Assembly (NCBI GenBank): GCA_011915565.1
Contig: GCA_011915565.1_3920.1
Length of the DNA stretch: 64,000 bases
DNA from: a phage
Reading direction: 5' to 3' (one strand)
In this document: one piece after another, positions 38,892 through 49,368 of the stretch
How the letters are laid out: the number at the start of each line of letters is the position of its first letter
How positions within the stretch are numbered: the first letter of the stretch is position 1
Position numbers and translations under genes: made by a program
The notes under the pieces: model-generated
Database searches by the model: none
What the model was told of the DNA's origin: nothing
Seen by the model: only the letters and a program-made list of their open reading frames with translations

Positions 38892-39356
38892 TTACTTTGG
38901 ATATACACTGTCAAGATAAATGTCAGCTTCCATTCTACGTCTGTTTTTCAGACCGTTTGAAGTGACCTTCTTACCTTTGACTGTAACCTTGTTCCACCAC
39001 TGCATAGCTTCTGCACAACCTACCTTATTACCAGCATTGTGGCGCTTGATAAATGTGGAATCCTGCATAGCTGTGATACCGATGTTGTATGTTTCACTTA
39101 CAAGTGCATCGAACTCATTCTGAGTAGTTGGAACCTTGATAGCTTTGTTCACTGCTGCAACAAACTTCTCAACATCCGCGAGAAGATACTGTTCAGCTTG
39201 TTCAGCGGTGATTTTCATTCCCATCTTAACAGGTTTTCCGTCAATACGGATTGTACCATACCCGATTGTTGGGATTCCGGCAGAGTCTTCGTAAGCCTCT
39301 AACTCCAGACCTTCGAAGAACTTAATAGCTTCTAAACCTTTTCTTGAGAGTTGCAT
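38892..39356 (-). CDS. endolysin, phage lysozyme (GH24, T4-lysozyme-like)
   Basis: 154 aa; GLEAIKFFEGLELEAYEDSAGIPTIGYGT matches the T4/lambda lysozyme catalytic N-terminal region. Confidence 0.8.
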   Translation of the reverse strand: MQLSRKGLEAIKFFEGLELEAYEDSAGIPTIGYGTIRIDGKPVKMGMKITAEQAEQYLLADVEKFVAAVNKAIKVPTTQNEFDALVSETYNIGITAMQDSTFIKRHNAGNKVGCAEAMQWWNKVTVKGKKVTSNGLKNRRRMEADIYLDSVYPK

Positions 39357-40489
39357 TATGCCTCCCCTGCTGGGTTAACAGTAACTGTTGCAGCATTAGA
39401 CGTTACAGAACCACCTGCACCAGTAACTACACAGGTGTAGCTTCCTGCATCAGCAGCGGTTGCACCTTCTTTGGTGTAAGTTGCAGTAGTTGCATCGAGG
39501 ATGTCTTCCTCACCTTTCTTCCATTGGTAACCTGTCGCACCTGTTGCCACAACATTCAGCGTTAAGGTCTCACCTTCAGTGATTTCTTGATTGGTTGGCT
39601 GTTGAGTGATAACTGGTAAAGCTTTCACAGTAACGGTTGCAGGGTTAGAAGTGACAGAACCACCTGCACCTGTTACAACGCAAGTGTATGAACCTGCATC
39701 TGCTGGCAGAGCACCAGACTTACTATAGGTTGCATCTGTAGCCGAAGGAATGTCAGAGCCATCTTTCTTCCACTGATAACCTGTTGCACCTGTTGCAGTC
39801 ACTTCCAAGTTGATGTTTCCACCCTCATTGACGGTCTGGCTAGAAGGTTGTTGTGTAATCACAGGCAGTGCGTTGACAGTAACTGTTGCCGCATCTGAGG
39901 TAACGCTTGTCCCAGCCTCTCCAGATACAACACAAGTGTATGAACCAGCATCAGAAGGTTCTACAGACTGTTTTGTGTAGGTTGCAGATGTGGCGCTAGT
40001 GATATCCTCACCATCCTTTTTCCATTGATATCCAGTGGCATTAGTTGCAATAACACTTAGGGTAAGTGTACCACCTTCATTTACTGTTTGATTGGTTGGT
40101 TGCTGAGTGATTGATGGTGGCTTGATAGCGTCCTTCAACTTAGCATTCAACATTGAGAATGGTTTAACTCTTGCCAGCCATTCACAATAAACTGTATCAA
40201 CGTCTTTACCATTGATAATTGCATATTGTAAGTCCATGAAGAAGTCAGAAGTTCTCATTTGAGCACCAACACTGTAAAGCAACTCATCACTAAATGGAAC
40301 TTTGTAGTCTGGTTTATAGTCAAACTTCTCAACTTCTGCAATATCAGCTTCAGGCCAATACGAGCTATAGGTAAGTGGTAAAATAGCCTCTTGATATGTT
40401 CTAAAATCATATCTCTTACCAGCCTTTACGTTTGCAATGAAGCCCTTCACAAACTCTTTGAAGTCTGGGTAAGTCTTTGCTTTAATCAT
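39356..40489 (-). CDS. protein with three tandem Ig-like (I-set-type) domains
   Basis: 377 aa; three repeats of about 80 aa each containing GYQWKKDG...DAGSYTCVV; N-terminal 110 aa paralogous to the adjacent 123-aa protein. Confidence 0.7.
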   Translation of the reverse strand: MIKAKTYPDFKEFVKGFIANVKAGKRYDFRTYQEAILPLTYSSYWPEADIAEVEKFDYKPDYKVPFSDELLYSVGAQMRTSDFFMDLQYAIINGKDVDTVYCEWLARVKPFSMLNAKLKDAIKPPSITQQPTNQTVNEGGTLTLSVIATNATGYQWKKDGEDITSATSATYTKQSVEPSDAGSYTCVVSGEAGTSVTSDAATVTVNALPVITQQPSSQTVNEGGNINLEVTATGATGYQWKKDGSDIPSATDATYSKSGALPADAGSYTCVVTGAGGSVTSNPATVTVKALPVITQQPTNQEITEGETLTLNVVATGATGYQWKKGEEDILDATTATYTKEGATAADAGSYTCVVTGAGGSVTSNAATVTVNPAGEA

Positions 40490-42114: not shown

Positions 42115-42486
42115 ATGAAAAACAGAACAAACAAAGGCCAGTTTAAAAAAGGCCAGTCTGGAAACCCATCTGGAAGACCAAAAGGCTCTCGTAACAAAAG
42201 CTCACTTGTAAAAGCTCAACTGACCATTGATAATTCTGCTGAGTTTGCTGCAAAGTTGTTTGAAGCGATTGTTACAAGGGATGCTGCTAAGCTTGCAGAG
42301 TTCGGTTTGACGACTGACGATGTAAACCTGAAGTCGATGATGGAAGCTGGTAAAACTATCATGACTCACTCAGCAGGTGAGATGAAAGCAATTGCAGCAG
42401 ACACTAAGAAGACCCCTGATAATGGTGGTCAGCCTCAGACAGATAACAAACCAACGTTCTCTGCTGTTGCAACCCTCAAAAAATAA
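42115..42486 (+). CDS. hypothetical protein with GNPSGRPKG motif
   Basis: 123 aa; basic N-terminus KKGQSGNPSGRPKGSRNK. Confidence 0.55.
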   Translation: MKNRTNKGQFKKGQSGNPSGRPKGSRNKSSLVKAQLTIDNSAEFAAKLFEAIVTRDAAKLAEFGLTTDDVNLKSMMEAGKTIMTHSAGEMKAIAADTKKTPDNGGQPQTDNKPTFSAVATLKK

Positions 42487-42498
42487 TTTTAAAAGATG

Positions 42499-42528
42499 TT
42501 GACAGACTCTATAAAGTTGCTCTAAAGT
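42499..42528 (+). promoter_or_regulatory. sigma70-like promoter (TTGACA-18-TAAAGT)
   Basis: Upstream of the vWA-domain gene. Confidence 0.45.
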
Positions 42529-42567: not shown

Positions 42568-43983
42568 ATGAGCGAATTATTTAAACATGCGCACCTTCAT
42601 GCAGGTCGAACTGAAAATGGTGCTGTAAACCATACTTCATCAATGTCTGCTCTTGTAGACTTTTACAAAGCTGCTGGTTCAAGCCGTAGCAATGTAGAAA
42701 TCTTACCAGACCTGTTCTACAAAGCTTTGCGTGAGGATGTTGATGTTGCAGTTCGTATTTTACTGCATATGCGAGATGTACGAGAAGGTATGGGTGAGCG
42801 TAAGGCCTTCAGAACTGTTTTACTTCAAGCGATTGAAGACAAAGTTTTAGAGCCTACGCAGGTTCTTCGCATTATGGATAAGGTTGCAGAACTTGGTCGT
42901 TTTGATGACTTCAAAATCTTCGTAGGTACTCGTTTCGAGACAGATGCCTTCAAGCATTTAGAAGCAGCATTACTAGACCCTGCAACAGCAGGTTTGGCGG
43001 CTAAGTGGTTACCACGAGTCAAACCACGTCATAAGCAGTTTGTAAAACGTTTCTGCAAGTTTGCCAACTTGAGTGAGAAAGAGTACCGCACACTGTTGTC
43101 TGCACTATCTGATACAGTTGAGCAAAAAATCTCTGCTAATGAGTTTGGTAAGATTGATTACAGCAAGATTCCTTCACTTGCTGCTGCACGTTACCAAAAA
43201 CTCTTTAACCGTAAAGATGGGGAACGTTACAAAGCTTACATTGAGTCTTTATCAAAGGGCGAGGCTAAGATTAATGCTGGTGCTGTTTACCCATACGATG
43301 TGATTAAATCTGTTAAGTATGGTAATGCAGATGTTGCTAATGAGCAGTGGAAAGCACTACCAAACTGGATGGCAGAAGGTGAAAACATCCTATGTATGAC
43401 TGATGTTTCAAGCTCAATGTATTGGGTGAATTTTGGTTCAATCACTGCACTTGATATTGGTGTATCACTTGCCTTGTATGTAGCAGAACGCAATACAGGT
43501 TGCTTTAAGGATGAGTTGATGGTTTATTCAACAAACCCTCACTTCATCGAACTGAGTGGTGATTTACGAAACCGTCATCGTCAGGTGATGCGACACGTTG
43601 AATATGGCTCAACCAACTTACAAGCAGCTTTTGACCGCATTCTTGAAACAGGTAAAAGAAACAACTTGACTCAGAAAGATATGCCAAGTAAGCTTATCAT
43701 CTTCTCCGATATGGAGTTTAATCAGGTTGATGGTGCTAATGGTCGTACAAACTTCGAAGCAATTCGAGATAAGTACGAAAAAGCTGGATATGAGATGCCA
43801 CAACTGGTATTCTGGTACTTAGCAAACCGTAATGGTACTTGCGAAGTATCTATTAAGGATAACGGTGTAGCAATGGTATCTGGTTTCTCTCCAGCCACTT
43901 TAAAAGCTTTGCTTGGTGGTGAGAAGTTTGACCCAATCAGCGTAATGCTCAAAGCAGTAATGATTGACCGTTACATCTGGTAA
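42568..43983 (+). CDS. von Willebrand factor A (vWA) domain protein with N-terminal helical domain
   Basis: 471 aa; MIDAS-like DVSSSM at about residue 280; domain order resembles Ro60/TROVE or DUF2828-type proteins (inference). Confidence 0.7.
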   Translation: MSELFKHAHLHAGRTENGAVNHTSSMSALVDFYKAAGSSRSNVEILPDLFYKALREDVDVAVRILLHMRDVREGMGERKAFRTVLLQAIEDKVLEPTQVLRIMDKVAELGRFDDFKIFVGTRFETDAFKHLEAALLDPATAGLAAKWLPRVKPRHKQFVKRFCKFANLSEKEYRTLLSALSDTVEQKISANEFGKIDYSKIPSLAAARYQKLFNRKDGERYKAYIESLSKGEAKINAGAVYPYDVIKSVKYGNADVANEQWKALPNWMAEGENILCMTDVSSSMYWVNFGSITALDIGVSLALYVAERNTGCFKDELMVYSTNPHFIELSGDLRNRHRQVMRHVEYGSTNLQAAFDRILETGKRNNLTQKDMPSKLIIFSDMEFNQVDGANGRTNFEAIRDKYEKAGYEMPQLVFWYLANRNGTCEVSIKDNGVAMVSGFSPATLKALLGGEKFDPISVMLKAVMIDRYIW

Positions 43984-44002
43984 AAAGTTTTAAAAAGGGT
44001 AT

Positions 44003-44031
44003 TGACAATGTGTTTAATACCCTTTAATATG
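44003..44031 (+). promoter_or_regulatory. sigma70-like promoter (TTGACA-17-TAATAT) with overlapping inverted repeat
   Basis: GGGTATT...AATACCC palindrome spans the -35 and spacer; heads the tRNA array. Confidence 0.55.
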
Positions 44032-44148
44032 TTCTACATAGAAACGAGATGAGGGCTTTTCTAAGATACTGAAAAATATTTTAAAAAAGTTCTTGACAAC
44101 CACTAAAAAATAATGTTAAAGTGGTTACATAGAGTTTGAAAAGTTTAT

Positions 44149-44225
44149 CTCTGTTTAGCTCAGCTTGGTAGAGCGTTCCGTTTGGGGCGGTAAGGCCGGA
44201 GGTTCAAGTCCTCCAACAGAGACCA
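44149..44225 (+). tRNA. tRNA-Pro (anticodon TGG)
   Basis: Manual cloverleaf: acceptor CTCTGTT/AACAGAG, GGTTCAAGTCC T-arm, CCA encoded. Confidence 0.7.
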
Positions 44226-44232
44226 AATTAAT

Positions 44233-44310
44233 GTTCCAGTAGACAAAATGGTAAAGTCACCACTCTTTCAAAGTGGATATCTGAGGGTTCAAATCCCTTC
44301 TGGAACGCCA
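44233..44310 (+). tRNA. tRNA-Glu (anticodon TTC)
   Basis: Acceptor GTTCCAG/CTGGAAC; anticodon stem CCACT/AGTGG, loop CTTTCAA; CCA encoded. Confidence 0.7.
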
Positions 44311-44315
44311 GTTTT

Positions 44316-44392
44316 GACAGAAGACCAATTACAGCAAACTTAATCTTATTCATCTGAAGGTAAATCGGACAAAGAAGAGATTTGGTCTGGTC
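44316..44392 (+). other. tRNA-spacer structured element, copy 1 (CAGAAGACC...GGTCTGG)
   Basis: Conserved CAGAAGACCAATTACAGCAA head and TTGGTCTGG tail forming a 7-bp closing stem. Confidence 0.5.
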
Positions 44393-44401
44393 ATTAAGAA
44401 T

Positions 44402-44478
44402 TGCGGGTATAGAGAAAGGGTGTCTCACATGTCTCATTAGCATGGTATCGGCAGGTTCGACTCCTGCACCCGCCTCCA
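44402..44478 (+). tRNA. tRNA-Met (anticodon CAT)
   Basis: D-stem GAGA/TCTC, anticodon loop CTCATTA, T-arm GCAGG-TTCGACT-CCTGC, CCA encoded. Confidence 0.65.
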
Positions 44479-44480
44479 AA

Positions 44481-44550
44481 TTTACAGAAGACCGTTTACA
44501 GCAATACTTATTAAATTTTTAGCGGAAAAATTGAAAGATACGGTCTGGTA
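44481..44550 (+). other. tRNA-spacer structured element, copy 2
   Basis: TTTACAGAAGACCGTTTACAGCAA...ACGGTCTGG. Confidence 0.5.
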
Positions 44551-44561
44551 ATACTAAACAT

Positions 44562-44638
44562 GGTTAGGAAGCACATAAGGTATGTGCGGTCGCCTGTTAA
44601 GCGAATGGCACAGGGTTCGAATCCCTGACTAACCGCCA
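44562..44638 (+). tRNA. tRNA-Asn (anticodon GTT)
   Basis: Acceptor GGTTAGG/ACTAACC; anticodon loop CTGTTAA; T-arm CAGGG-TTCGAAT-CCCTG. Confidence 0.65.
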
Positions 44639-44646
44639 AATTAAAT

Positions 44647-44734
44647 GTGTCGTTATCCCGTAGATGGTAGCGGTGGGGACTGTAAATCCCTTGTCATTGA
44701 GACTCGGTAGGTTCGACTCCTACACGGCACACCA
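44647..44734 (+). tRNA. tRNA-Tyr (anticodon GTA), long variable arm
   Basis: 88 nt; anticodon stem-loop GGGGA-CTGTAAA-TCCCT; type II structure. Confidence 0.65.
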
Positions 44735-44739
44735 ATAAA

Positions 44740-44816
44740 GGCTATGTAGTTTAACTGGAGAAAATACTCCCCTGTCACGGGAGATGATGTGAGTTCAAGT
44801 CTCATCGTAGCCGCCA
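44740..44816 (+). tRNA. tRNA-Asp (anticodon GTC)
   Basis: Acceptor GGCTATG/CGTAGCC; anticodon stem CTCCC/GGGAG, loop CTGTCAC. Confidence 0.7.
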
Positions 44817-44875
44817 ATTTTGAGAGGGCTATTTAGTTCCTCCCTTAAAGAGTTCTTACGAGTATTCTTTAAAGG

Positions 44876-44952
44876 AGCAGAAGACCAAATACAGCAAGAA
44901 TGTATGAAATTTCAAGCCAATTTAATTTTGAAAATTTAAAACTTGGTCTGGC
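44876..44952 (+). other. tRNA-spacer structured element, copy 3
   Basis: GCAGAAGACCAAATACAGCAA...CTTGGTCTGG. Confidence 0.5.
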
Positions 44953-44963
44953 TCAACAAATTT

Positions 44964-45098
44964 ACAGAAGACCGTTTACAGCAAAACTTAAACAATCTAT
45001 TTCTCCGGTAAAGAAAAGGCGAAGGTTCGATTCCTTCACTCGGCAGATGTCGAGTTGGTGTAATGGTAGCACTTAAGATGATAAACAACGGTCTGGTA
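44964..45098 (+). other. tRNA-spacer structured element, copy 4, containing a degenerate tRNA-like segment
   Basis: TTTACAGAAGACCGTTTACAGCAA head; T-arm-like GAAGG-TTCGATT-CCTTC, hairpin ACTCGGCA/TGTCGAGT, D-arm-like TGGTGTAATGGTAGCAC, then ACGGTCTGG. Confidence 0.45.
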
Positions 45099-45239
45099 AT
45101 TATCTTTGTAGATAAGTTATTAAGCTTACCTGTGAGTATGCGACCACAAAGGGTGAAGGGTAAATTCTAGATTTAAACCCAAAAGGCACATCGCTACAGA
45201 CCTTAAGCAAGTCTGGGTAGCTTATCTACAAAGATAATT
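45098..45239 (+). other. perfect 19-bp inverted repeat enclosing 104 nt
   Basis: AATTATCTTTGTAGATAAG at 45098-45116 and its exact reverse complement at 45221-45239; lies between spacer element 4 and tRNA-Lys. Confidence 0.6.
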
Positions 45240-45243
45240 TAAT

Positions 45244-45319
45244 GGAAGTGTAGCAGAATGGTGATGCGGCAGACTTTTAATCTGACAGGCGATGGGTTCG
45301 AATCCCTCCACTTCTACCA
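45244..45319 (+). tRNA. tRNA-Lys (anticodon TTT)
   Basis: Anticodon loop CTTTTAA; T-arm ATGGG-TTCGAAT-CCCTC; paralog of the 46541 tRNA. Confidence 0.6.
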
Positions 45320-45397
45320 AATTCACCCTTAACTGAGAAACACCTGCGCGGCTGGAAACACCCACTCAACAGTTTCTCTAACTAGGGTACTTATTCT

Positions 45398-45474
45398 GGT
45401 TCAGTCGCAGATAAGGTAATGCAAGGGTCTCATAAGCCCTATGAATGTGGGTTCGATTCCCATCTGAACCTCCA
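45398..45474 (+). tRNA. tRNA with CAT anticodon (Met or lysidine-Ile)
   Basis: Acceptor GGTTCAG/CTGAACC; anticodon stem AGGGT/GCCCT, loop CTCATAA. Confidence 0.6.
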
Positions 45475-45475
45475 A

Positions 45476-45551
45476 GCTGGTATAGTTAAGAAGGTTATAA
45501 CACTCCCCTGATAAGGGAACATCGGTGGTTCGATTCCACCTACCAGTACCA
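45476..45551 (+). tRNA. tRNA-Ile (anticodon GAT)
   Basis: Acceptor GCTGGTA/TACCAGT; anticodon loop CTGATAA. Confidence 0.65.
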
Positions 45552-45566
45552 ATTTCAATAAAGTTG

Positions 45567-45595
45567 TTGACATTGAGATGTGACTCCTTTATACT
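45567..45595 (+). promoter_or_regulatory. sigma70-like promoter (TTGACA-17-TATACT)
   Basis: Inside the tRNA array, upstream of a 200-nt hairpin-rich spacer and tRNA-Arg. Confidence 0.55.
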
Positions 45596-45797
45596 AACCT
45601 TAGTTTTCGTTGCGTAGCGTCTATTTTGCAAATTTAAAATAAATGCAAACGACAATGTTTTTCTGGCAGTAGCTTGATAGGCTAAACACCAGTGAGGTCT
45701 TCCAATCCCTCATCAAAGAATTTGGCGTACTCGCCCACGGTATGATTAATAAGGTGGGCATCTTTAAGGGCTTTCTAAGAGAGTCTTTAAAGATAAT

Positions 45798-45874
45798 GCA
45801 CCCTTAGTTCAATTGGATAGAGCAACGGTCTTCTAAATCGTTAGTTACAGGTTCGAATCCTGTAGGGTGTACCA
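45798..45874 (+). tRNA. tRNA-Arg (anticodon TCT)
   Basis: Acceptor GCACCCT/AGGGTGT; D-arm GTTC...GAGC; anticodon loop CTTCTAA. Confidence 0.7.
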
Positions 45875-46016
45875 AATAGTTAGCAGATTACTTAGACGGC
45901 CTTAGCGGGTCTTCCTGTAGGGAGGTGGTCTGTATCTCATGTTTTCCAGAACATGTAAATAATCTGAGAAGAAGCTTGACAGTGTTGAGATAACAGGGTA
46001 AGCTTCGAATTATAAT

Positions 46017-46099
46017 ATGGGACGATGTTAAGACTCTAAGGCATGAGCAACGGCCTCCAAAACCGTTTCAAAGGGGTTCAACTCCTCCGTCCCATGCCA
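46017..46099 (+). tRNA. tRNA-Trp (anticodon CCA)
   Basis: Acceptor ATGGGAC/GTCCCAT; anticodon loop CTCCAAA; 83 nt with enlarged D region; preceded by TATAAT. Confidence 0.55.
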
Positions 46100-46112
46100 A
46101 AGTCTTATTAGG

Positions 46113-46200
46113 GGTAGGTAGCGGCTAATGGCAGCCAAACAGTCTTGAAAACTGTTGCCACTGTAGAGATACGGTGAGGGTTCGACTCCTTTACTTACCG
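46113..46200 (+). tRNA. tRNA-Ser (anticodon TGA), long variable arm
   Basis: Anticodon stem ACAGT/ACTGT, loop CTTGAAA; type II; no CCA encoded. Confidence 0.6.
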
Positions 46201-46376
46201 CCTAATAAGATTTACTCCGTCCATGCTTGTTCGCATTGTCGGTTTATCCCTCGTGTATTGTCGTACACTGTCAAAGCACCTAGTAGGTGTCACGGAGAAG
46301 AGATAATATCAAGCTCTCCAAAGGTTCTAGTCACCGGATTAAACAAGACTATGCAAAGACCTATTTAGGTCTTTTT
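46201..46376 (+). ncRNA. candidate structured non-coding RNA ending in an intrinsic terminator
   Basis: No ORF; long-range complementarity (ACTCCGTCC ... GTCACGGAGAAG); ends with AGACC-TATTT-AGGTCT plus TTTTT at 46355-46376. Confidence 0.4.
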
Positions 46377-46456
46377 AGAGGGCTTCTAAGGTTATTAGTC
46401 GCTTGTTGTGGAACCTTGTTGCTCAGGTTCTTAGAAGTTCTCTAAAAAGATTTAAT

Positions 46457-46533
46457 GCACCTATAGCCCAACTGGTAGAGGCAGCAGACTTAGAATCTGC
46501 TCAGTGTGAGTTCGAATCTCTCTAGGTGTACCA
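46457..46533 (+). tRNA. tRNA with TAG anticodon (Leu by anticodon; short variable arm)
   Basis: Acceptor GCACCTA/TAGGTGT; anticodon stem GCAGA/TCTGC, loop CTTAGAA; 77 nt, type I. Confidence 0.55.
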
Positions 46534-46540
46534 AATTAAT

Positions 46541-46616
46541 GCAGGTGTAGCAAAATGGTTATGCGGCTGACTCTTAATCAGTAAGACGATGGGTTCAATT
46601 CCCTCCACCTGTACCA
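46541..46616 (+). tRNA. tRNA-Lys (anticodon CTT)
   Basis: Paralog of the 45244 tRNA; anticodon loop CTCTTAA. Confidence 0.55.
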
Positions 46617-46622
46617 AACAAT

Positions 46623-46698
46623 GGGGTCATAGTTTATATGGTTAAAATTCGAGTTTTGCAAACTTGGGAACCGAGTTCAATTCTCGGTGACTCCACCA
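46623..46698 (+). tRNA. tRNA-Ala (anticodon TGC)
   Basis: Clean 76-nt cloverleaf: GGGGTCA acceptor, GTTT/AAAT D-stem, loop TTTGCAA, T-arm CCGAG-TTCAATT-CTCGG. Confidence 0.7.
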
Positions 46699-46704
46699 AT
46701 TAGT

Positions 46705-46779
46705 GCATCCATAGTTTAAACGGGAAAATTACAGTCTTCCAAACTGAGGTTGAGGGTTCGATTCCCTCTGGATGCTCCA
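46705..46779 (+). tRNA. tRNA-Gly (anticodon TCC)
   Basis: Acceptor GCATCCA/TGGATGC; anticodon loop CTTCCAA. Confidence 0.65.
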
Positions 46780-46786
46780 AATTAAT

Positions 46787-46862
46787 GCTCCTATCGTATA
46801 ATTGGTTATTACGGTTGCCTTGTAAGCAACTTATCAGGGTTCGAGTCCTTGTGGGAGCACCA
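46787..46862 (+). tRNA. tRNA-Thr (anticodon TGT)
   Basis: Anticodon stem GTTGC/GCAAC perfect, loop CTTGTAA; T-arm CAGGG-TTCGAGT-CCTTG. Confidence 0.7.
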
Positions 46863-46892
46863 ATTCAGAGGTCAAGTGAAAGACCGCTTTGA

Positions 46893-46950
46893 GTCAACTG
46901 AAGACCGTAACAAATTCCACGGAGTTGAGTTAGCGGCACAACTCCAGACC
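46893..46950 (+). other. tRNA-spacer structured element, diverged copy 5
   Basis: CTGAAGACCGTAACAAATTCC related to the CAGAAGACC head; enclosed by AGAGGTC/GACCTCT inverted repeat. Confidence 0.4.
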
Positions 46951-46958
46951 TCTTTCAT

Positions 46959-47033
46959 ACTCGCTTAGTTTATATGGTAAAACATCACCCTTACAAGATG
47001 AAGAAAAAGGTTCAAGTCCTTTAGTGAGTACCA
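46959..47033 (+). tRNA. tRNA-Val (anticodon TAC)
   Basis: D-stem GTTT/AAAC; anticodon loop CTTACAA; T-arm AAAGG-TTCAAGT-CCTTT. Confidence 0.65.
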
Positions 47034-47034
47034 T

Positions 47035-47112
47035 GTTCCAGTATCCCAATTGGCAGAGGATGCAAGCTCAAACCTTGTATTAGTGACGGTTCGAATCCGT
47101 CTTGGAACACCA
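47035..47112 (+). tRNA. tRNA with CAA anticodon (Leu by anticodon; short variable arm)
   Basis: Acceptor GTTCCAG/TTGGAAC; anticodon stem GCAAG/CTTGT, loop CTCAAAC; T-arm GACGG-TTCGAAT-CCGTC. Confidence 0.55.
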
Positions 47113-47117
47113 ATTTT

Positions 47118-47193
47118 GCAGGATTAGTTCAAATGGAAAGAGCAACAGTCTACGAAGCTGTTAATAGGGGTTCGAATCCCTTATCCTGCGCCA
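47118..47193 (+). tRNA. tRNA-Arg (anticodon ACG)
   Basis: Clean 76-nt cloverleaf; anticodon stem ACAGT/GCTGT, loop CTACGAA. Confidence 0.7.
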
Positions 47194-47210
47194 GATAAAA
47201 AGGTGATACT

Positions 47211-47453
47211 ATGCAAACATTAACAGTAGTTGAACATGAAAACTGTGAGAGTATTGAGTTTGTCAGGGTCATTGGTGTTGAACACCACATTTTCTTAAAA
47301 GTTGGATACTTATGTGACCCCGCTAGAGTAGAAAGATTTATACGTGATTGTTTTGGTGGTAGACATCTGAAGAGTGTTATTTTTGAGACAGTTTTACCAG
47401 AAGGTTTAGAAACGAATAATAACATTTACCTCCTTACGAGGATTAGACAATGA
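47211..47453 (+). CDS. hypothetical protein embedded in tRNA array
   Basis: 80 aa; AAGGTGA RBS 6 nt upstream; directly follows tRNA-Arg. Confidence 0.5.
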   Translation: MQTLTVVEHENCESIEFVRVIGVEHHIFLKVGYLCDPARVERFIRDCFGGRHLKSVIFETVLPEGLETNNNIYLLTRIRQ

Positions 47454-48007
47454 GATACTTAAAGTATGCTTCATGGATTTTCTTAGCTTTGTTAGAGCCA
47501 TTTGCAGCAATCTTAGCAGTTATCTTAGCACCTTTTGTAGTTCCATTCTACAGTGAGAAGAAAGGACACTTACCTTTCGGGTTCAGATGGATGGAGACTT
47601 ATGACAACCCAATTGATGGTGATGCAGGTCATATCAAACGATGGGCTAAGATTAGAAAGATTGGTAAGCTTGGTGTCTACATGCAGAGAGTTGGATGGCT
47701 CTGGAGAAACAAAGCTTATAACTTCTCTTACCATGTGTTAGGAAGAGATGTAAAAGACGTTACTAAGTGGAAAGGTAATATCAACGTAAGTTCTAACCCT
47801 GAAGATAATCAGACAGGTTATCTCCTAATGTGGAACAGTAATGCTTGGGGATTATTCGCTTTTATCCCATCAATTAAAATCTTTGGTAAACAATTCTACT
47901 GGAGAATTTATGTTGGATGGAAACTTAAAAGTGTTGTCCCAGAAGAAAGAGCATTCTCAAGGGAAAGAGTTATGTTGGCATTCTTTATTCATCCACTAAG
48001 AAAGTAA
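47450..48007 (+). CDS. membrane protein embedded in tRNA array
   Basis: 185 aa; N-terminal TM segment WIFLALLEPFAAILAVILAPFVVPF; start overlaps upstream stop (ATGA). Confidence 0.6.
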   Translation: MRYLKYASWIFLALLEPFAAILAVILAPFVVPFYSEKKGHLPFGFRWMETYDNPIDGDAGHIKRWAKIRKIGKLGVYMQRVGWLWRNKAYNFSYHVLGRDVKDVTKWKGNINVSSNPEDNQTGYLLMWNSNAWGLFAFIPSIKIFGKQFYWRIYVGWKLKSVVPEERAFSRERVMLAFFIHPLRK

Positions 48008-48015
48008 AGATTTAA

Positions 48016-48091
48016 AGGGGATTAGTTTACAAGGTTAAAACCTCGGTCTTTGAAATCGAAGAAGTTGGTTCAATTCCAACATCCCCCGCCA
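48016..48091 (+). tRNA. tRNA-Gln (anticodon TTG)
   Basis: Anticodon loop CTTTGAA; T-arm GTTGG-TTCAATT-CCAAC; unpaired 1:72 and G73. Confidence 0.65.
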
Positions 48092-48093
48092 AT

Positions 48094-48172
48094 GCTCCAT
48101 TACTCCAATTGGCAGAGAGGCCAGACTTAAAATCTGTGTTATGTATCGGTTCGAATCCGATATGGAGTACCA
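48094..48172 (+). tRNA. tRNA with TAA anticodon (Leu by anticodon; short variable arm)
   Basis: Acceptor GCTCCAT/ATGGAGT; anticodon loop CTTAAAA; D-loop AATTGGCAGA shared with the 47035 tRNA. Confidence 0.5.
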
Positions 48173-48177
48173 AATTT

Positions 48178-48253
48178 AGCGGTATAGCATAACTGGCAAT
48201 GCAGCAGCCTCTGAAGCTGTCCTATTAAGGTTCAAATCCTTATGCCGCTGCCA
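48178..48253 (+). tRNA. tRNA-Gln (anticodon CTG)
   Basis: Acceptor AGCGGTA/TGCCGCT; anticodon stem GCAGC/GCTGT, loop CTCTGAA; G73. Confidence 0.6.
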
Positions 48254-48284
48254 CTTCTAAGGATTCTTACGAGAGTCCTTAAAT

Positions 48285-48360
48285 GTGGCCTTATCATAAA
48301 TGGTAATGACCCATGCTGTGAACATGGTCTATACGGGTTCAAATCCCGTAGGTCACCCCA
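48285..48360 (+). tRNA. tRNA-His (anticodon GTG)
   Basis: Anticodon stem CCATG/CATGG perfect, loop CTGTGAA; discriminator C. Confidence 0.7.
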
Positions 48361-48366
48361 ATTTAT

Positions 48367-48442
48367 AGTCCAAGTAGCTTATATGGTTAAAGCGCGTGTC
48401 TGAAAAACATGAGAAGAGGGTTCAAATCCCACTGGACTACCA
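48367..48442 (+). tRNA. tRNA-Phe (anticodon GAA)
   Basis: Anticodon stem CGTGT/ACATG, loop CTGAAAA; T-loop TTCAAAT; CCA encoded. Confidence 0.6.
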
Positions 48443-48458
48443 ATTTCAAAGGTGCTTA

Positions 48459-49193
48459 ATGAAAGAGATGACAGAACAAGGTAAGGAGATTTTCAATCTC
48501 TTAAAAACCGGTAAAGGGTTTTCTAACCCCCTTATTACTGGTGCAGCAGTTCTCGGTGGAACCGTAGCTGCCTCTACATCACTTGTAAGCTCTATTAGCT
48601 CTGTATCAGACCCTACAGTAAAGGATAAGCTTGTTGCTGCTGGACTTACAACAGTTCTGCTTAACAGCTTTACCACGAGTCTGACAAGCACTACATCAAC
48701 TACCAAAACACTAACAGATTACGGTCAAAAGTCCATTGATGAGTTTTCATCACGTATGCAGGTAGCAAAAGGTTACTCTAATGTTATGGGTGCAGCAGGT
48801 GAACAAGTTGGCTGTACACCATTTAGTGGTATTATGGGTGTTGCTACAGAGTATGGTCAAAAAGCTATTGATACGATTAACAGTGCACTAGATAGTGTTA
48901 ATGGTGTGTTAAGTGACTTACAAGATGCTATTGACAAAGGTCTTGATACTATTTCTGATTTAGCTGAGCAAGCTGTTAGTAAGATTAATGAAGGTATTTC
49001 AAAAATTACAGCTTATGCAGATGAAGTTGTGCAGATGATTGAAGAAGAAGCTGCTCTTATTGCAGAGTACCTTAAAACGAATATCAATGGGTTCTTAGCA
49101 GGTATCTTACCAGACTGGTTTGATGATGCTTGTAAAACTGGTGTAATTGACACTATTGCAACACCAGAAATGAAGAACGCATTACAGAAATAA
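48459..49193 (+). CDS. hypothetical protein (Ser/Thr-rich N-terminus, helical C-terminus)
   Basis: Track ORF starts at 48396 inside tRNA-Phe; first ATG after the tRNA (48459) with AAAGGTG RBS chosen. Confidence 0.55.
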   Translation: MKEMTEQGKEIFNLLKTGKGFSNPLITGAAVLGGTVAASTSLVSSISSVSDPTVKDKLVAAGLTTVLLNSFTTSLTSTTSTTKTLTDYGQKSIDEFSSRMQVAKGYSNVMGAAGEQVGCTPFSGIMGVATEYGQKAIDTINSALDSVNGVLSDLQDAIDKGLDTISDLAEQAVSKINEGISKITAYADEVVQMIEEEAALIAEYLKTNINGFLAGILPDWFDDACKTGVIDTIATPEMKNALQK

Positions 49194-49195
49194 AT

Positions 49196-49288
49196 GGAAG
49201 ATTAACCCTAAAAGGTAAGGGAGCAGTTTGCTAAACTGCCAGTAGCTGAGAAATCGGTGTACCAGTTCAAGTCTGGTATCTTCCTCCA
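49196..49288 (+). tRNA. tRNA-Ser (anticodon GCT), long variable arm
   Basis: Acceptor GGAAGAT/ATCTTCC; anticodon stem GCAGT/ACTGC, loop TTGCTAA; T-arm TACCAG-TTCAAGT-CTGGTA. Confidence 0.65.
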
Positions 49289-49292
49289 ATTT

Positions 49293-49368
49293 GAATCCGT
49301 GACAGAAACGGCTATGTGCCTGTCTGCAAAACAGGTTTATAAGGGTTCGAGTCCCTTCGGATTCTCCA
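49293..49368 (+). tRNA. tRNA-Cys (anticodon GCA)
   Basis: Acceptor GAATCCG/CGGATTC; anticodon stem CCTGT/ACAGG, loop CTGCAAA. Confidence 0.7.

What the first reader, a model, noticed from the sequence alone, without database searches (positions are those of the whole stretch)
42568..43983. vWA-domain protein with N-terminal helical domain immediately upstream of the tRNA and structured-RNA array
The 471-aa product has a MIDAS-like DVSSSM motif near residue 280 within a predicted vWA fold preceded by about 270 aa of helical sequence. That N-terminal helical plus C-terminal vWA order is the architecture of Ro60/TROVE RNA-binding proteins (which bind Y RNAs, some of them tRNA-like) and of DUF2828-type phage proteins. 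Its position directly before 27 tRNAs and a family of structured spacer RNAs raises the possibility of a phage RNA chaperone or quality-control protein working with those RNAs. The N-terminal assignment is inference.
Basis: inference. Interest (0 to 1): 0.6.

Follow-up and report, generated by a model that had tools for sequence, protein, structure and literature searches.

The report
Phage Ro60-like protein with Y-like RNAs
This Felix O1-type phage gene encodes a divergent relative of the Ro60 RNA-binding ring protein, and the "spacers" in the tRNA cluster just downstream contain four previously unannotated RNAs built like bacterial Y RNAs, Ro60's usual partners, so the two probably form a phage ribonucleoprotein.

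Summary
Window 42568-43983(+) is a 471-aa ORF in a Felixounavirus (wV8 gp47 homolog). It has an all-helical N-terminal ~270 aa and a C-terminal vWA domain with an invariant MIDAS site (D279-x-S-x-S283, T349, D381). It ends 165 nt before the tRNA array.

The new result concerns the RNAs. Four spacer units (44315-45099) share a covarying stem, bulge and stem followed by a conserved CAGCAA motif. Unit 4 adds a permuted tRNA-like module (T arm, acceptor-like hairpin, D arm), which is the YrlA/Y RNA design.

A covariance model built only from Ounavirinae copies finds related RNAs beside DUF2828 genes in at least 10 lineages sharing <60% protein identity. These include a mycobacteriophage, an Enterococcus phage and marine phages. 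All hits lie on the gene's strand and 12 of 21 lie within 350 nt of the gene. Rfam's own YrlA model recognises several of them.

Best reading: a Ro60/Y-RNA-type RNP, a new variant of a known kind. Its downstream role (exoribonuclease or tRNA quality control) is inferred.

The parts
42499..42528 (+). Promoter-like site (TTGACA-18-TAAAGT) upstream of the gene
   Evidence: Consensus scan, 10 of 12 matches. The same TTGACA-N18-TAAAGT pattern recurs at 44093-44122. This is a consensus match only.
42568..43983 (+). Gene for the 471-aa Ro60-like protein: DUF2828 helical domain (about residues 1-270) plus DUF7788 vWA domain (about 274-455) with MIDAS D279/S281/S283/T349/D381
43994..44025 (+). 12-bp hairpin just after the stop codon (weak terminator-like); it overlaps a second promoter-like site at 44002-44030
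44093..44122 (+). Promoter-like site (TTGACA-18-TAAAGT, with an extended TG) in front of tRNA-Pro. It is the likely start of the transcript that carries the first tRNAs and the four Y-like units.
   Evidence: No + strand terminator-like site lies between 44030 and 47273.
44315..44393 (+). Y-like unit 1 (short form): P1 UGAC/GUCA, 5' bulge AGA, 3' bulge G, P2 AGACCAA/UUGGUCU, then UACAGCAA. It lies between tRNA-Glu and tRNA-Met.
   Evidence: Repeat family D5, fold, R2 score 42.5 bits.
44482..44551 (+). Y-like unit 2 (short form), between tRNA-Met and tRNA-Asn
   Evidence: R1 49.2 bits, R2 48 bits. In SUSP2 the P1 helix changes from UUAC/GUAA to UUGC/GCAA.
44875..44954 (+). Y-like unit 3 (short form), P1 GAGC/GCUC
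   Evidence: R2 34 bits.
44962..45099 (+). Y-like unit 4 (long, YrlA-like form). It has the same P1/bulge/P2/UACAGCAA module and in addition a variable-arm-like hairpin, a T arm (45021-45037, loop UUCGAUU), a 6-7 bp acceptor-like hairpin (45038-45055), UG, and a D arm (45058-45072, loop AAUGGUA).
   Evidence: compensatory changes in the acceptor-like hairpin; R1 168.9 bits, R2 132.4 bits.
44149..49368 (+). tRNA array (26 tRNAs) in which the Y-like units are embedded. tRNA processing at the flanks would release the units.
   Evidence: The release step is inference.

Best explanation
The gene encodes a divergent structural relative of Ro60/Rsr: a helical-repeat domain closed by a MIDAS-bearing vWA domain. 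The four spacer RNAs 330-1100 nt downstream on the same strand are its Y-RNA-type partners.

Proposed mechanism:
1. The units are transcribed with the first tRNAs from the promoter-like site at 44093 and are cut out when RNase P and the 3' tRNA-processing enzymes trim the flanking tRNAs (inferred).
2. The protein binds the conserved module shared by all four units: P1, an AGA/G asymmetric bulge, P2 and the CAGCAA motif. This forms an RNP, as Ro60 does with the bulged stem of Y RNAs (inferred from co-location, covariation and fold).
3. The tRNA-like elbow of unit 4 recruits or mimics a substrate for tRNA-recognising or RNA-decay enzymes. By analogy with Rsr-Y RNA-PNPase and with Thermus phage phiRo60-Yrl, the RNP re-targets or restrains a host 3'-5' exoribonuclease during infection. 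This would affect the turnover or quality control of structured RNAs, plausibly including the phage's own tRNA precursors (inferred, least certain).

What is shown: the fold, the MIDAS conservation, the RNA structures with covariation, and the gene-RNA linkage across lineages. What is inferred: binding, processing and the effector step.
For: Protein:
- DUF2828 + DUF7788 and PHROG 850 'RNA-binding protein', E 1.9e-184.
- AF2 model with pLDDT 90, pTM 0.89.
- The 11 best Foldseek PDB hits are all Ro60/TROVE structures, E 2e-8 to 2e-6.
- hhalign against a 25-sequence Ro60/Rsr profile: probability 90%, E 1.6e-6, for residues 232-450 against Ro60 314-536. This covers the RIHP helix, the vWA domain and the GFD tail.
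- The MIDAS residues are invariant.

RNA:
- A four-copy repeat in the spacers folds into one common architecture in all copies.
- Across three Ounavirinae genera, 99% of cells are paired and the acceptor-like hairpin shows two compensatory pairs.
- Model R1, built only from Ounavirinae unit 4, finds matches in distant DUF2828 loci: Enterococcus phage Porthos 58 bits, L027 57, L077 52, mycobacteriophage Lewan 47. Of 98 hits, 97 are on the gene's strand.
- The 31-sequence alignment has 93% of cells paired against 56% in shuffles, 34 of 36 pairs with changes on both sides, and a covariation score of 0.497 against 0.121 (0 of 500 shuffles) and <=0.10 when slid.
- With model R2, all 116 hits are on the gene's strand.
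- 21 diverse loci have a hit of >=43 bits, and 12 of these lie within 350 nt of the gene, where about 0.7 is expected. Ten protein clusters at <60% identity have such a hit within 500 nt.
- Control tRNA arrays from phages whose fetched tRNA regions carry no DUF2828 gene give at most 29 bits for full-length hits.
- Rfam's curated YrlA model independently hits the same elements in Porthos (45.9 bits, E 1.7e-7), L021 (39.2 bits) and L077 (38.9 bits).

Precedent: YrlA RNAs lie within 4 kb of Ro60 genes on the same strand (PMC4201824). Phage phiRo60 binds two adjacent Yrl RNAs and host PNPase (PMC12135203).
Against: - There is no TROVE HMM match, and the N-terminal domain alone shows no profile-profile similarity to TROVE (probability 1%). 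The ring relationship therefore rests on a predicted structure whose coordinates I could not inspect for a central cavity.
- Rfam's YrlA model does not score the window's own units even at E <=10.
- The conserved motifs (CAGAAG, CAGCAA) differ from the GNCGAA(N)G / CGAA motif of known Y RNAs.
- About half of the 82 homolog loci show no detectable unit within 10 kb.
- The A5 alignment is fitted to the model, which inflates pair counts. The E-values come from a shortened calibration. Many loci are related to each other. The control set is small (72 kb).
- No binding, expression or processing data exist.
- This phage has an annotated polynucleotide kinase but no annotated RNA ligase, so a repair role is not supported here.
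Confidence: 0.68

Rival explanations
1. The protein is a Ro60-like chaperone or quality-control factor that acts directly on the phage tRNAs or their precursors. On this view the spacer units are only processing spacers or degenerate tRNA remnants and not dedicated partners.
For: The gene sits at the head of a 26-tRNA array. 17 of 75 diverse homolog loci have a tRNA within 1 kb, and every tRNA or tmRNA found is on the gene's strand. Ro60 is known to bind misfolded small RNAs (PMC12135203, introduction). In Listeria phage WIL-1 the homolog lies between a tRNA array and an RtcB ligase.
Against: The short units have no tRNA-like part, yet they keep a covarying stem and the CAGCAA motif. Related units lie within 350 nt of the gene in loci with no tRNA at all, for example L081, L070, L039 and L051. 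About half of the homolog loci have no tRNA within 10 kb. The two models are not exclusive, because a Y-RNA-gated Ro60 can still act on tRNAs.
Confidence: 0.15
2. The protein is a vWA/MIDAS protein-protein adaptor, for example an assembly or packaging co-chaperone. It has no RNA role and its position next to the RNAs is incidental.
For: The invariant MIDAS site is a classic protein-ligand site. The gene lies in the block that leads to the large terminase subunit, portal and head genes. In Staphylococcus phage BE02 it sits between the small and large terminase subunit genes. One Erwinia jumbo-phage homolog is annotated 'putative structural protein'.
Against: The whole-length fold match is to Ro60, not only to a vWA domain. 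No MoxR-type AAA+ partner appears among the neighbours. The RNA family tracks the gene across at least 10 lineages in very different genomic contexts.
Confidence: 0.08
3. The repeated units are DNA-level or cis-acting elements (promoters, attenuators, or an autoregulatory leader or trailer of the gene) and not trans-acting partner RNAs.
For: The P1 5' strands resemble -35 hexamers (TTGACA, TTTACA), and the scan flags 44481-44508 as promoter-like. In several lineages the unit lies 8-123 nt upstream of the start codon, which is a leader position.
Against: P1 and P2 covary with partners 60-130 nt downstream, which a promoter would not require. In this window the units are separated from the gene by a hairpin, promoter-like sites and tRNAs. 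The T-loop and D-loop sequence signatures point to a folded RNA.
Confidence: 0.05

Closest known systems
Ro60 / Rsr (TROVE PF05731 + Ro60-type vWA PF25045) with Y RNAs, especially bacterial YrlA (Rfam RF02553)
   Different: There is no TROVE HMM match, and the N-terminal domain is about 80 aa shorter and unrecognisable by sequence. The window's RNAs do not reach any reportable score with the YrlA model, and they carry CAGAAG/CAGCAA motifs in place of GNCGAA(N)G. There are four units per genome, embedded in a tRNA array rather than in an rsr-yrl-rtcBA operon.
phiRo60 of Thermus phage phiLo with Yrl1/Yrl2 (PMC12135203; PDB 9l5y, 9kop)
   Different: phiRo60 is deposited as a TROVE domain-containing protein. 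Its Yrls carry the CGAA motif and were shown to bind the protein and host PNPase. Nothing has been shown experimentally for the Felix O1-type system.
DUF2828/DUF7788 proteins annotated 'Ro-like RNA binding protein' (e.g. cluster L mycobacteriophage Lewan gp56; LeBron gp53 carries the same product name) or 'RNA-binding protein' (PHROG 850)
   Same: Lewan gp56 is in the same protein family: 34% identity over 98% of the length, with the same two Pfam domains. Lewan also has a Y-like RNA 99 nt downstream of the gene.
   Different: These labels are annotation transfers. LeBron gp53 (472 aa, not compared here by sequence) was only shown to be moderately toxic when overexpressed (PMC13148394). I found no description of partner RNAs for this family.
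Small stable RNAs in phage tRNA clusters (T4-type rnaC/rnaD); ROOL and GOLLD RNAs in tRNA arrays
   Same: They are non-tRNA structured RNAs embedded in phage tRNA arrays. The T4-like phage RB10 has rnaC and rnaD after its tRNAs. Listeria phage WIL-1 has a ROOL-like RNA beside the homolog.
   Different: There is no sequence or structure relationship to the units described here. R2 gives no confident hit in the RB10 tRNA region.

Membership tests
DUF2828 + DUF7788 protein family (Pfam PF11443, PF25043; PHROG 850) | Matches to both Pfam HMMs above their gathering scores, and a full-length match to PHROG 850 | tested here: met
   DUF7788 scores 145.3 bits (cut-off 27.1) and DUF2828 scores 103 bits (cut-off 29). 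PHROG 850: E 1.9e-184, residues 1-471 against profile positions 1-476.
Ro60 / TROVE family | Match to the TROVE domain HMM (PF05731), or sequence-profile similarity of the N-terminal domain | tested here: not met
   No TROVE hit at E <=1. A profile of 60 homologs finds no Ro60 sequence in the PDB. hhalign of the N-terminal halves alone gives probability 1%. Canonical Rsr homologs all carry PF05731+PF25045.
Ro60 / TROVE family | Helical-repeat (HEAT-like) domain packed against a C-terminal vWA domain, with an overall Ro60 fold | tested here: met
Ro60 / TROVE family | Closed ring with a central cavity that accepts single-stranded RNA ends | not testable with these tools
   The model coordinates could not be inspected. 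Only summary scores are returned.
Ro60 / TROVE family | vWA domain with a complete MIDAS site (DxSxS, T, D) and Ro60-type flanking elements | tested here: met
   D279, S281, S283, T349 and D381 are invariant. hhalign probability 90%, E 1.6e-6, covering the 'RIHP' helix, the vWA domain and the 'GFD' tail.
Ro60 / TROVE family | A Y RNA encoded close by on the same strand | tested here: met
   Four Y-like units lie 330-1100 nt downstream on the + strand. The same linkage holds in at least 10 other lineages.
Ro60 / TROVE family | Demonstrated binding of Y RNA or misfolded RNA | not testable with these tools
   This requires RIP/EMSA experiments.
YrlA (Rfam RF02553), tested for unit 4 at 44962-45099 | Score at or above the Rfam gathering threshold (69 bits) | tested here: not met
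   No YrlA match in 43900-47500 even at E <=10. Homologous elements in other phages score 29-46 bits, which is significant but below the gathering score.
YrlA (Rfam RF02553), tested for unit 4 at 44962-45099 | tRNA-like domain in permuted order (T arm, capped acceptor-like stem, D arm) closed by a long stem formed by the 5' and 3' ends | tested here: met
   Sequence and fold. The T loop is UUCGAUU and the D loop is AAUGGUA. Compensatory changes occur in the acceptor-like stem, and there is broad covariation.
YrlA (Rfam RF02553), tested for unit 4 at 44962-45099 | GNCGAA(N0-1)G motif in the Ro60-binding stem (PMC4201824) | tested here: not met
   The corresponding strand reads ACAGAAGACC. The conserved motif of this family is (U/A)CAGCAA, placed after P2.
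MoxR-vWA chaperone/co-chaperone pairs | An adjacent MoxR-type AAA+ ATPase gene | tested here: not met
   No AAA+ gene appears among the neighbours in the window or in wV8. No such family appears among the recurrent neighbours in 75 loci.

The most novel reading that the evidence does not exclude
DUF2828/DUF7788 proteins together with CAGCAA-type Y-like RNAs may form a very large, unrecognised viral branch of the Ro60-Y RNA system. The family spans more than 5,700 protein clusters at 50% identity, is present in 710 sequenced phages, and has close structural relatives in giant viruses. In this reading the RNAs are born from and matured with phage tRNA arrays, and the RNP hijacks host tRNA-processing or exoribonuclease machinery. 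That could, for example, protect or replace the tRNA pool when the host deploys tRNA-targeting defences.
Probability: 0.25. Interest if true: 0.85.

Novelty: new variant of a known kind. Interest (0 to 1): 0.68.

Why it matters
Ro60-Y RNA particles are conserved from bacteria to humans, yet their function is still poorly defined. In bacteria they have been studied mainly in Deinococcus and Salmonella.

If the Felix O1-type protein and its four spacer RNAs form such a particle, three things follow:
- A classical, genetically tractable coliphage/Salmonella phage becomes a model for Ro60 biology.
- A very large "domain of unknown function" family in phages and giant viruses gains a concrete, testable role.
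- Part of the non-tRNA sequence in phage tRNA arrays, now often annotated as tiny hypothetical ORFs, is explained as partner RNAs.

It also gives a possible reason why Y RNAs mimic tRNAs. In these phages they appear to sit within tRNA arrays and could be released by the same processing enzymes.

Tried and rejected
- **Sequence searches against solved structures.** Neither the single protein nor a 60-sequence profile found Ro60. The link appears only at fold level and in hhalign of the C-terminal half.
- **N-terminal homology.** hhalign restricted to the N-terminal halves gave no signal, so I do not claim TROVE homology for that domain.
- **Defence and naming libraries.** PADLOC and NCBIfam gave nothing useful.
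- **Known RNA families in the window.** Rfam scans of the window's tRNA region at E <=1 and E <=10 found no Y RNA, YrlA, ROOL or GOLLD. The units were found through the repeat search and by reading the sequence.
- **Conserved protein partner.** ORFs from 75 homolog loci were clustered to look for one. No neighbour family occurs in more than 20 loci, and those all belong to one related marine group (DnaJ, ClpP, RNase HII and similar).
- **RNA-repair link in this phage.** RefSeq annotation shows a polynucleotide kinase and a phosphatase but no RNA ligase or RtcB. I therefore rank repair below exoribonuclease/quality-control models here.
- **CUUAA/UUAAG helix.** RNAfold predicted this helix in unit 4, but it is not conserved in Sf14 or SUSP2. 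I replaced it with AUCU/AGAU, which is invariant and therefore unproven.
- **Weak model hits.** Control arrays show that tRNA-tRNA junctions give R2 scores up to 29 bits (full-length) and 43 bits (partial). Hits below about 43 bits inside tRNA arrays were not counted as confident.
- **Unavailable resources.** The afdb50 library was not available. Two review and analysis papers (PMC5062991, PMC10870794) are not held, and the supplementary phage list of Chen et al. 2014 is not held. I therefore could not check whether any DUF2828-type phage was included in that study.
Full report
**Identity of the window and check of the observation**

The window is a Felix O1-type myovirus (Ounavirinae, Felixounavirus). 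The 2.2 kb around the finding is 97% identical to VpaE1, wV8 and many other phages, with 253 matching records. ORF 42568-43983(+) is present as described, starts with ATG and encodes 471 aa. It corresponds to wV8 gp47, which is annotated "RNA-binding protein" in RefSeq, "vWFA protein" in some of the Escherichia phage records (e.g. MN850637 warpig, MN850577 heid), and "hypothetical protein" in most GenBank records.

The motif DVSSSM occupies residues 279-284. In a 60-sequence alignment of homologs (42-89% identity), the complete MIDAS set D279, S281, S283, T349 and D381 is invariant. So are many basic residues in the N-terminal half: R40, R69, R72, R78, R111 and K146.

The stop codon lies 165 nt before tRNA-Pro. 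ARAGORN finds 26 tRNAs, all on the + strand, between 44149 and 49368. A weak tRNA-like match at 46019-46093 may be the extra one.

**What the protein is**

Pfam assigns DUF2828 (E 2e-29) and DUF7788 (E 2e-42) and gives no TROVE hit. PHROG 850, "RNA-binding protein", matches end to end. PADLOC and NCBIfam give nothing.

The family is very large. It has 5,748 clusters at 50% identity with E <=1e-3 and is present in 710 phage records from Escherichia, Mycobacterium, Salmonella, Vibrio, Listeria, Staphylococcus, Campylobacter, Enterococcus, Bacillus and others. Its closest predicted viral structures include proteins of giant viruses (Pithovirus, CroV, Marseillevirus).

An AlphaFold2 model built from the alignment is confident (pLDDT 90.1, pTM 0.89). 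Residues 1-270 are helical and 274-447 form an alpha/beta fold.

- Foldseek against the PDB returns Ro60/TROVE structures as the 11 best hits (E 2e-8 to 2e-6, TM 0.50-0.65, whole-length). A gap follows to isolated vWA domains at E >1e-3.

At sequence-profile level, only the C-terminal half is recognisably Ro60-like. hhalign against a 25-sequence Ro60/Rsr profile gives 90% probability (E 1.6e-6) for residues 232-450 against Ro60 314-536. That span includes the "RIHP" helix before the vWA domain and the "GFD" tail after it. The N-terminal domains alone show no signal, and a family profile finds no Ro60 sequence in the PDB.

The protein is therefore a member of DUF2828/DUF7788 and a structural relative of Ro60. 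It is not a member of the TROVE family as defined by its HMM.

**The spacer RNAs**

A repeat search in the tRNA region found a four-copy family in the spacers (family D5). All four copies fold in the same way:
- an outer 4-bp helix P1 that differs between copies in a compensatory way (UGAC/GUCA, UUAC/GUAA, GAGC/GCUC);
- a 3-nt bulge (AGA) on the 5' strand opposite a single G on the 3' strand;
- a 7-8 bp helix P2 (AGACCnn/nnGGUCU);
- the motif UACAGCAA immediately after P2.

Units 1-3 (44315-44393, 44482-44551, 44875-44954) are short. Unit 4 (44962-45099) contains additional elements:
- a small hairpin;
- a canonical T arm, GAAGG-UUCGAUU-CCUUC;
- a 6-7 bp hairpin in the position of an acceptor stem closed by a loop;
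- the dinucleotide UG;
- a D arm, GUGU-AAUGGUA-GCAC.

This T arm, capped acceptor and D arm order, closed by a long bulged stem formed by the 5' and 3' ends, is the architecture described for the bacterial Y RNA YrlA (PMC4201824).

The units are conserved in three Ounavirinae genera: Felixounavirus, Mooglevirus Sf14 and Suspvirus SUSP2. Compensatory changes occur in the acceptor-like hairpin (ACUCG/CGAGU to ACACG/CGUGU) and in P1 of unit 2 (UUAC/GUAA to UUGC/GCAA). Rfam has no family that matches the window's units, even at E <=10. Curated RefSeq annotation leaves these stretches empty, and wV8 places small hypothetical ORFs over them.

**Linkage of the RNA to the gene across phages**

I fetched 80 viral-contig loci encoding homologs and several annotated phage loci. 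A covariance model (R1) built only from Ounavirinae unit 4 found significant matches in distant loci:
- Enterococcus phage Porthos, 58.4 bits, E 4e-11;
- L027, 56.6 bits;
- L077, 51.5 bits, 452 nt downstream of the gene;
- mycobacteriophage Lewan, 46.9 bits, in the gap 99 nt after its "Ro-like RNA binding protein" gene;
- L021, L024, L019 and L020, Yersinia phage P778, L048 and Staphylococcus phage BE02.

Of 98 hits, 97 are on the gene's strand. The hits share the CAGCAA motif after a P2 helix whose sequence differs freely between lineages.

On the 31-sequence alignment, 93% of cells are paired against 56% after shuffling. 34 of 36 pairs show changes on both sides. The covariation score is 0.497, against 0.121 in shuffles (0 of 500 reach it) and <=0.10 when partners are slid. 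The caveat is that this alignment is fitted to the model.

A second model (R2) gives 116 hits at E <=0.1, all on the gene's strand. Control tRNA arrays from four phages whose fetched tRNA regions carry no DUF2828 gene (T5-like, rV5-like, T4-like and an Aeromonas phage; 72 kb) give at most 29 bits for full-length matches. tRNA-tRNA junctions give up to 43 bits for partial matches.

I took >=43 bits as the confident threshold.
- 21 diverse loci beyond the Ounavirinae have a unit, and in 12 of them the nearest unit lies within 350 nt of the gene. About 0.7 would be expected if positions were uniform over the roughly 20-kb loci.
- In protein clusters at <60% identity, 14 of 23 have a confident unit and 10 have one within 500 nt.
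- Shorter units of 30-39 bits, above the control maximum of 24 bits for that type, lie within 350 nt of the gene in a further 13 loci, several of which have no tRNA.

Rfam's curated YrlA model independently hits the same elements in Porthos (45.9, 34.4 and 29.4 bits), L021 (39.2 bits) and L077 (38.9 and 28.7 bits). All are below the gathering score of 69 but have E-values from 1e-7 to 4e-2. The homologs in Lewan, Porthos, WIL-1 and BE02 are all DUF2828+DUF7788, not TROVE.

**tRNA arrays and other context**

In 75 diverse loci, 35 have a tRNA or tmRNA within the fetched flanks and 17 have one within 1 kb. All are on the gene's strand. The association with tRNA arrays is therefore frequent but not obligatory.

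The gene-RNA pair is the more constant feature. In tRNA-rich phages the units tend to sit inside the array.

In this window the units are flanked closely by tRNAs. Unit 1, for example, starts 4 nt after tRNA-Glu and ends 8 nt before tRNA-Met. There is a promoter-like site at 44093-44122 and no terminator-like site on the + strand until 47273. This suggests co-transcription with the tRNAs and release by tRNA processing, which is inference.

Listeria phage WIL-1 has the homolog between a tRNA array containing a ROOL-like RNA and an RtcB ligase. Porthos has a tmRNA in the array. Felixounaviruses have an annotated polynucleotide kinase but no RNA ligase. No protein-coding neighbour is shared across lineages.

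**How it most likely works**

Four things are shown computationally: a Ro60-like fold with an intact MIDAS site; a family of structured RNAs with the Y RNA/YrlA design; their conservation with covariation; and their tight, strand-specific linkage to the gene in many lineages.

The rest is inferred. The protein would bind the P1/bulge/P2/CAGCAA module, which is the one element common to all units. The tRNA-like elbow of the long form would engage tRNA-recognising enzymes. By analogy with Rsr-Y RNA-PNPase and with phiRo60-Yrl-PNPase, where the phage RNP attenuates PNPase (PMC12135203), the particle would then redirect or restrain host 3'-5' RNA decay during infection.

Whether the targets are phage tRNA precursors, damaged tRNAs or host RNAs cannot be decided here. 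A cluster L mycobacteriophage protein carrying the same "Ro-like RNA-binding protein" label (LeBron gp53, 472 aa; not compared here by sequence) is moderately toxic when overexpressed in M. smegmatis (PMC13148394).

**Comparison with what is known, and novelty**

Database labels already call this protein family "RNA-binding" or "Ro-like", so the protein assignment is not new. I found no paper that mentions DUF2828 functionally, none that links Felixounavirus to Ro60, and none that describes YrlA-type RNAs for this family.

Chen et al. 2014 searched genomes annotated as carrying TROVE-domain proteins (PMC4201824). Their phage list is not available to me. The partner RNAs in Felix O1-type phages, and the generality of the DUF2828-RNA pairing, therefore appear to be undescribed within the limits of the library searched.

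I classify the finding as a new variant of a known kind (the Ro60-Y RNA RNP). My confidence in the RNP reading is about 0.7, and it is much lower for any specific downstream function.

Noticed in passing
window 45102-45243 (+): Directly after Y-like unit 4 there is another strongly structured element: a roughly 20-bp closing stem (AUCUUUGUAGAUAAGUUAUU...) around a multi-branch core. MFE is -44.3 kcal/mol with z = -5.1 (0 of 200 shuffles fold as well). It matches no Rfam family and neither R1 nor R2. Its identity is unknown.
   Followed up: partly
window 42115-42486 (+): The upstream gene is a DUF5681 protein (PHROG 4114) with a basic, Gly-rich N terminus. In Staphylococcus phage BE02 the gene immediately upstream of the DUF2828 homolog is annotated as the small terminase subunit, and the large terminase subunit follows the tRNA(s) in both phages. 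The DUF5681 protein might therefore be the unassigned small terminase of Felix O1-type phages.
   Followed up: no
window 45493-45797 (+): The 246-nt spacer after tRNA-Ile gives weak tmRNA-type hits (tmRNA_permuted 28.1 bits, E 0.0045; tmRNA 15.7 bits). It also contains the best promoter-like site of the array (TTGACA-17-TATACT, 45567-45595). Several homolog loci carry genuine tmRNA genes on the same strand (L024, L035, L041, L042, L050, L057, Porthos).
   Followed up: no
window 46019-46093 (+): A tRNA-like sequence that ARAGORN does not call (Rfam tRNA-Sec model, 23 bits). wV8 annotates a 'tRNA-OTHER' at the corresponding place.
   Followed up: no
L084 2429-2980 (Listeria phage WIL-1): There is a ROOL RNA match (RF03087, 87 bits, E 2e-16, just under the gathering score of 99.1) inside the tRNA array about 1 kb upstream of the DUF2828 homolog. 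An HD-domain protein, RtcB ('tRNA splicing ligase'), NADAR and a 'tRNA amidotransferase' lie downstream. The tRNAs there are mis-annotated as many tiny hypothetical ORFs.
   Followed up: partly
L082 2069-3028 and 5506-5636 (Mycobacterium phage Lewan): A band-7-like membrane protein lies about 1 kb upstream of the 'Ro-like' DUF2828 gene. The 370-nt unannotated gap after the gene holds a Y-like RNA (R2 78 bits) that Rfam's YrlA model does not detect at E <=0.1.
   Followed up: partly
window 44900-45088, both strands; L001 10939-11196: The small ORFs annotated in wV8 (gp48, gp49 and others) and listed mechanically here overlap the Y-like units and tRNAs. Given the RNA-level covariation, they are probably spurious gene calls.
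   Followed up: partly
L092 9263-9527 (T4-like phage RB10): The T4-type small stable RNAs rnaD and rnaC sit at the end of that phage's tRNA cluster. This is another case of non-tRNA RNAs matured from a phage tRNA array. R2 finds no confident match there.
   Followed up: no
window 39356-40489 (-): The 377-aa 'tail protein' carries three tandem, near-identical Ig-like repeats of about 90 aa (…ITQQP(T/S)(N/S)Q…GATGYQWKK…AGSYTCVV…).
   Followed up: no
L021 15696-15922: There is a group I intron match (RF00028, 71.5 bits, above the gathering score) in a marine phage locus that also carries the DUF2828 gene, a Y-like RNA and tRNAs.
   Followed up: no
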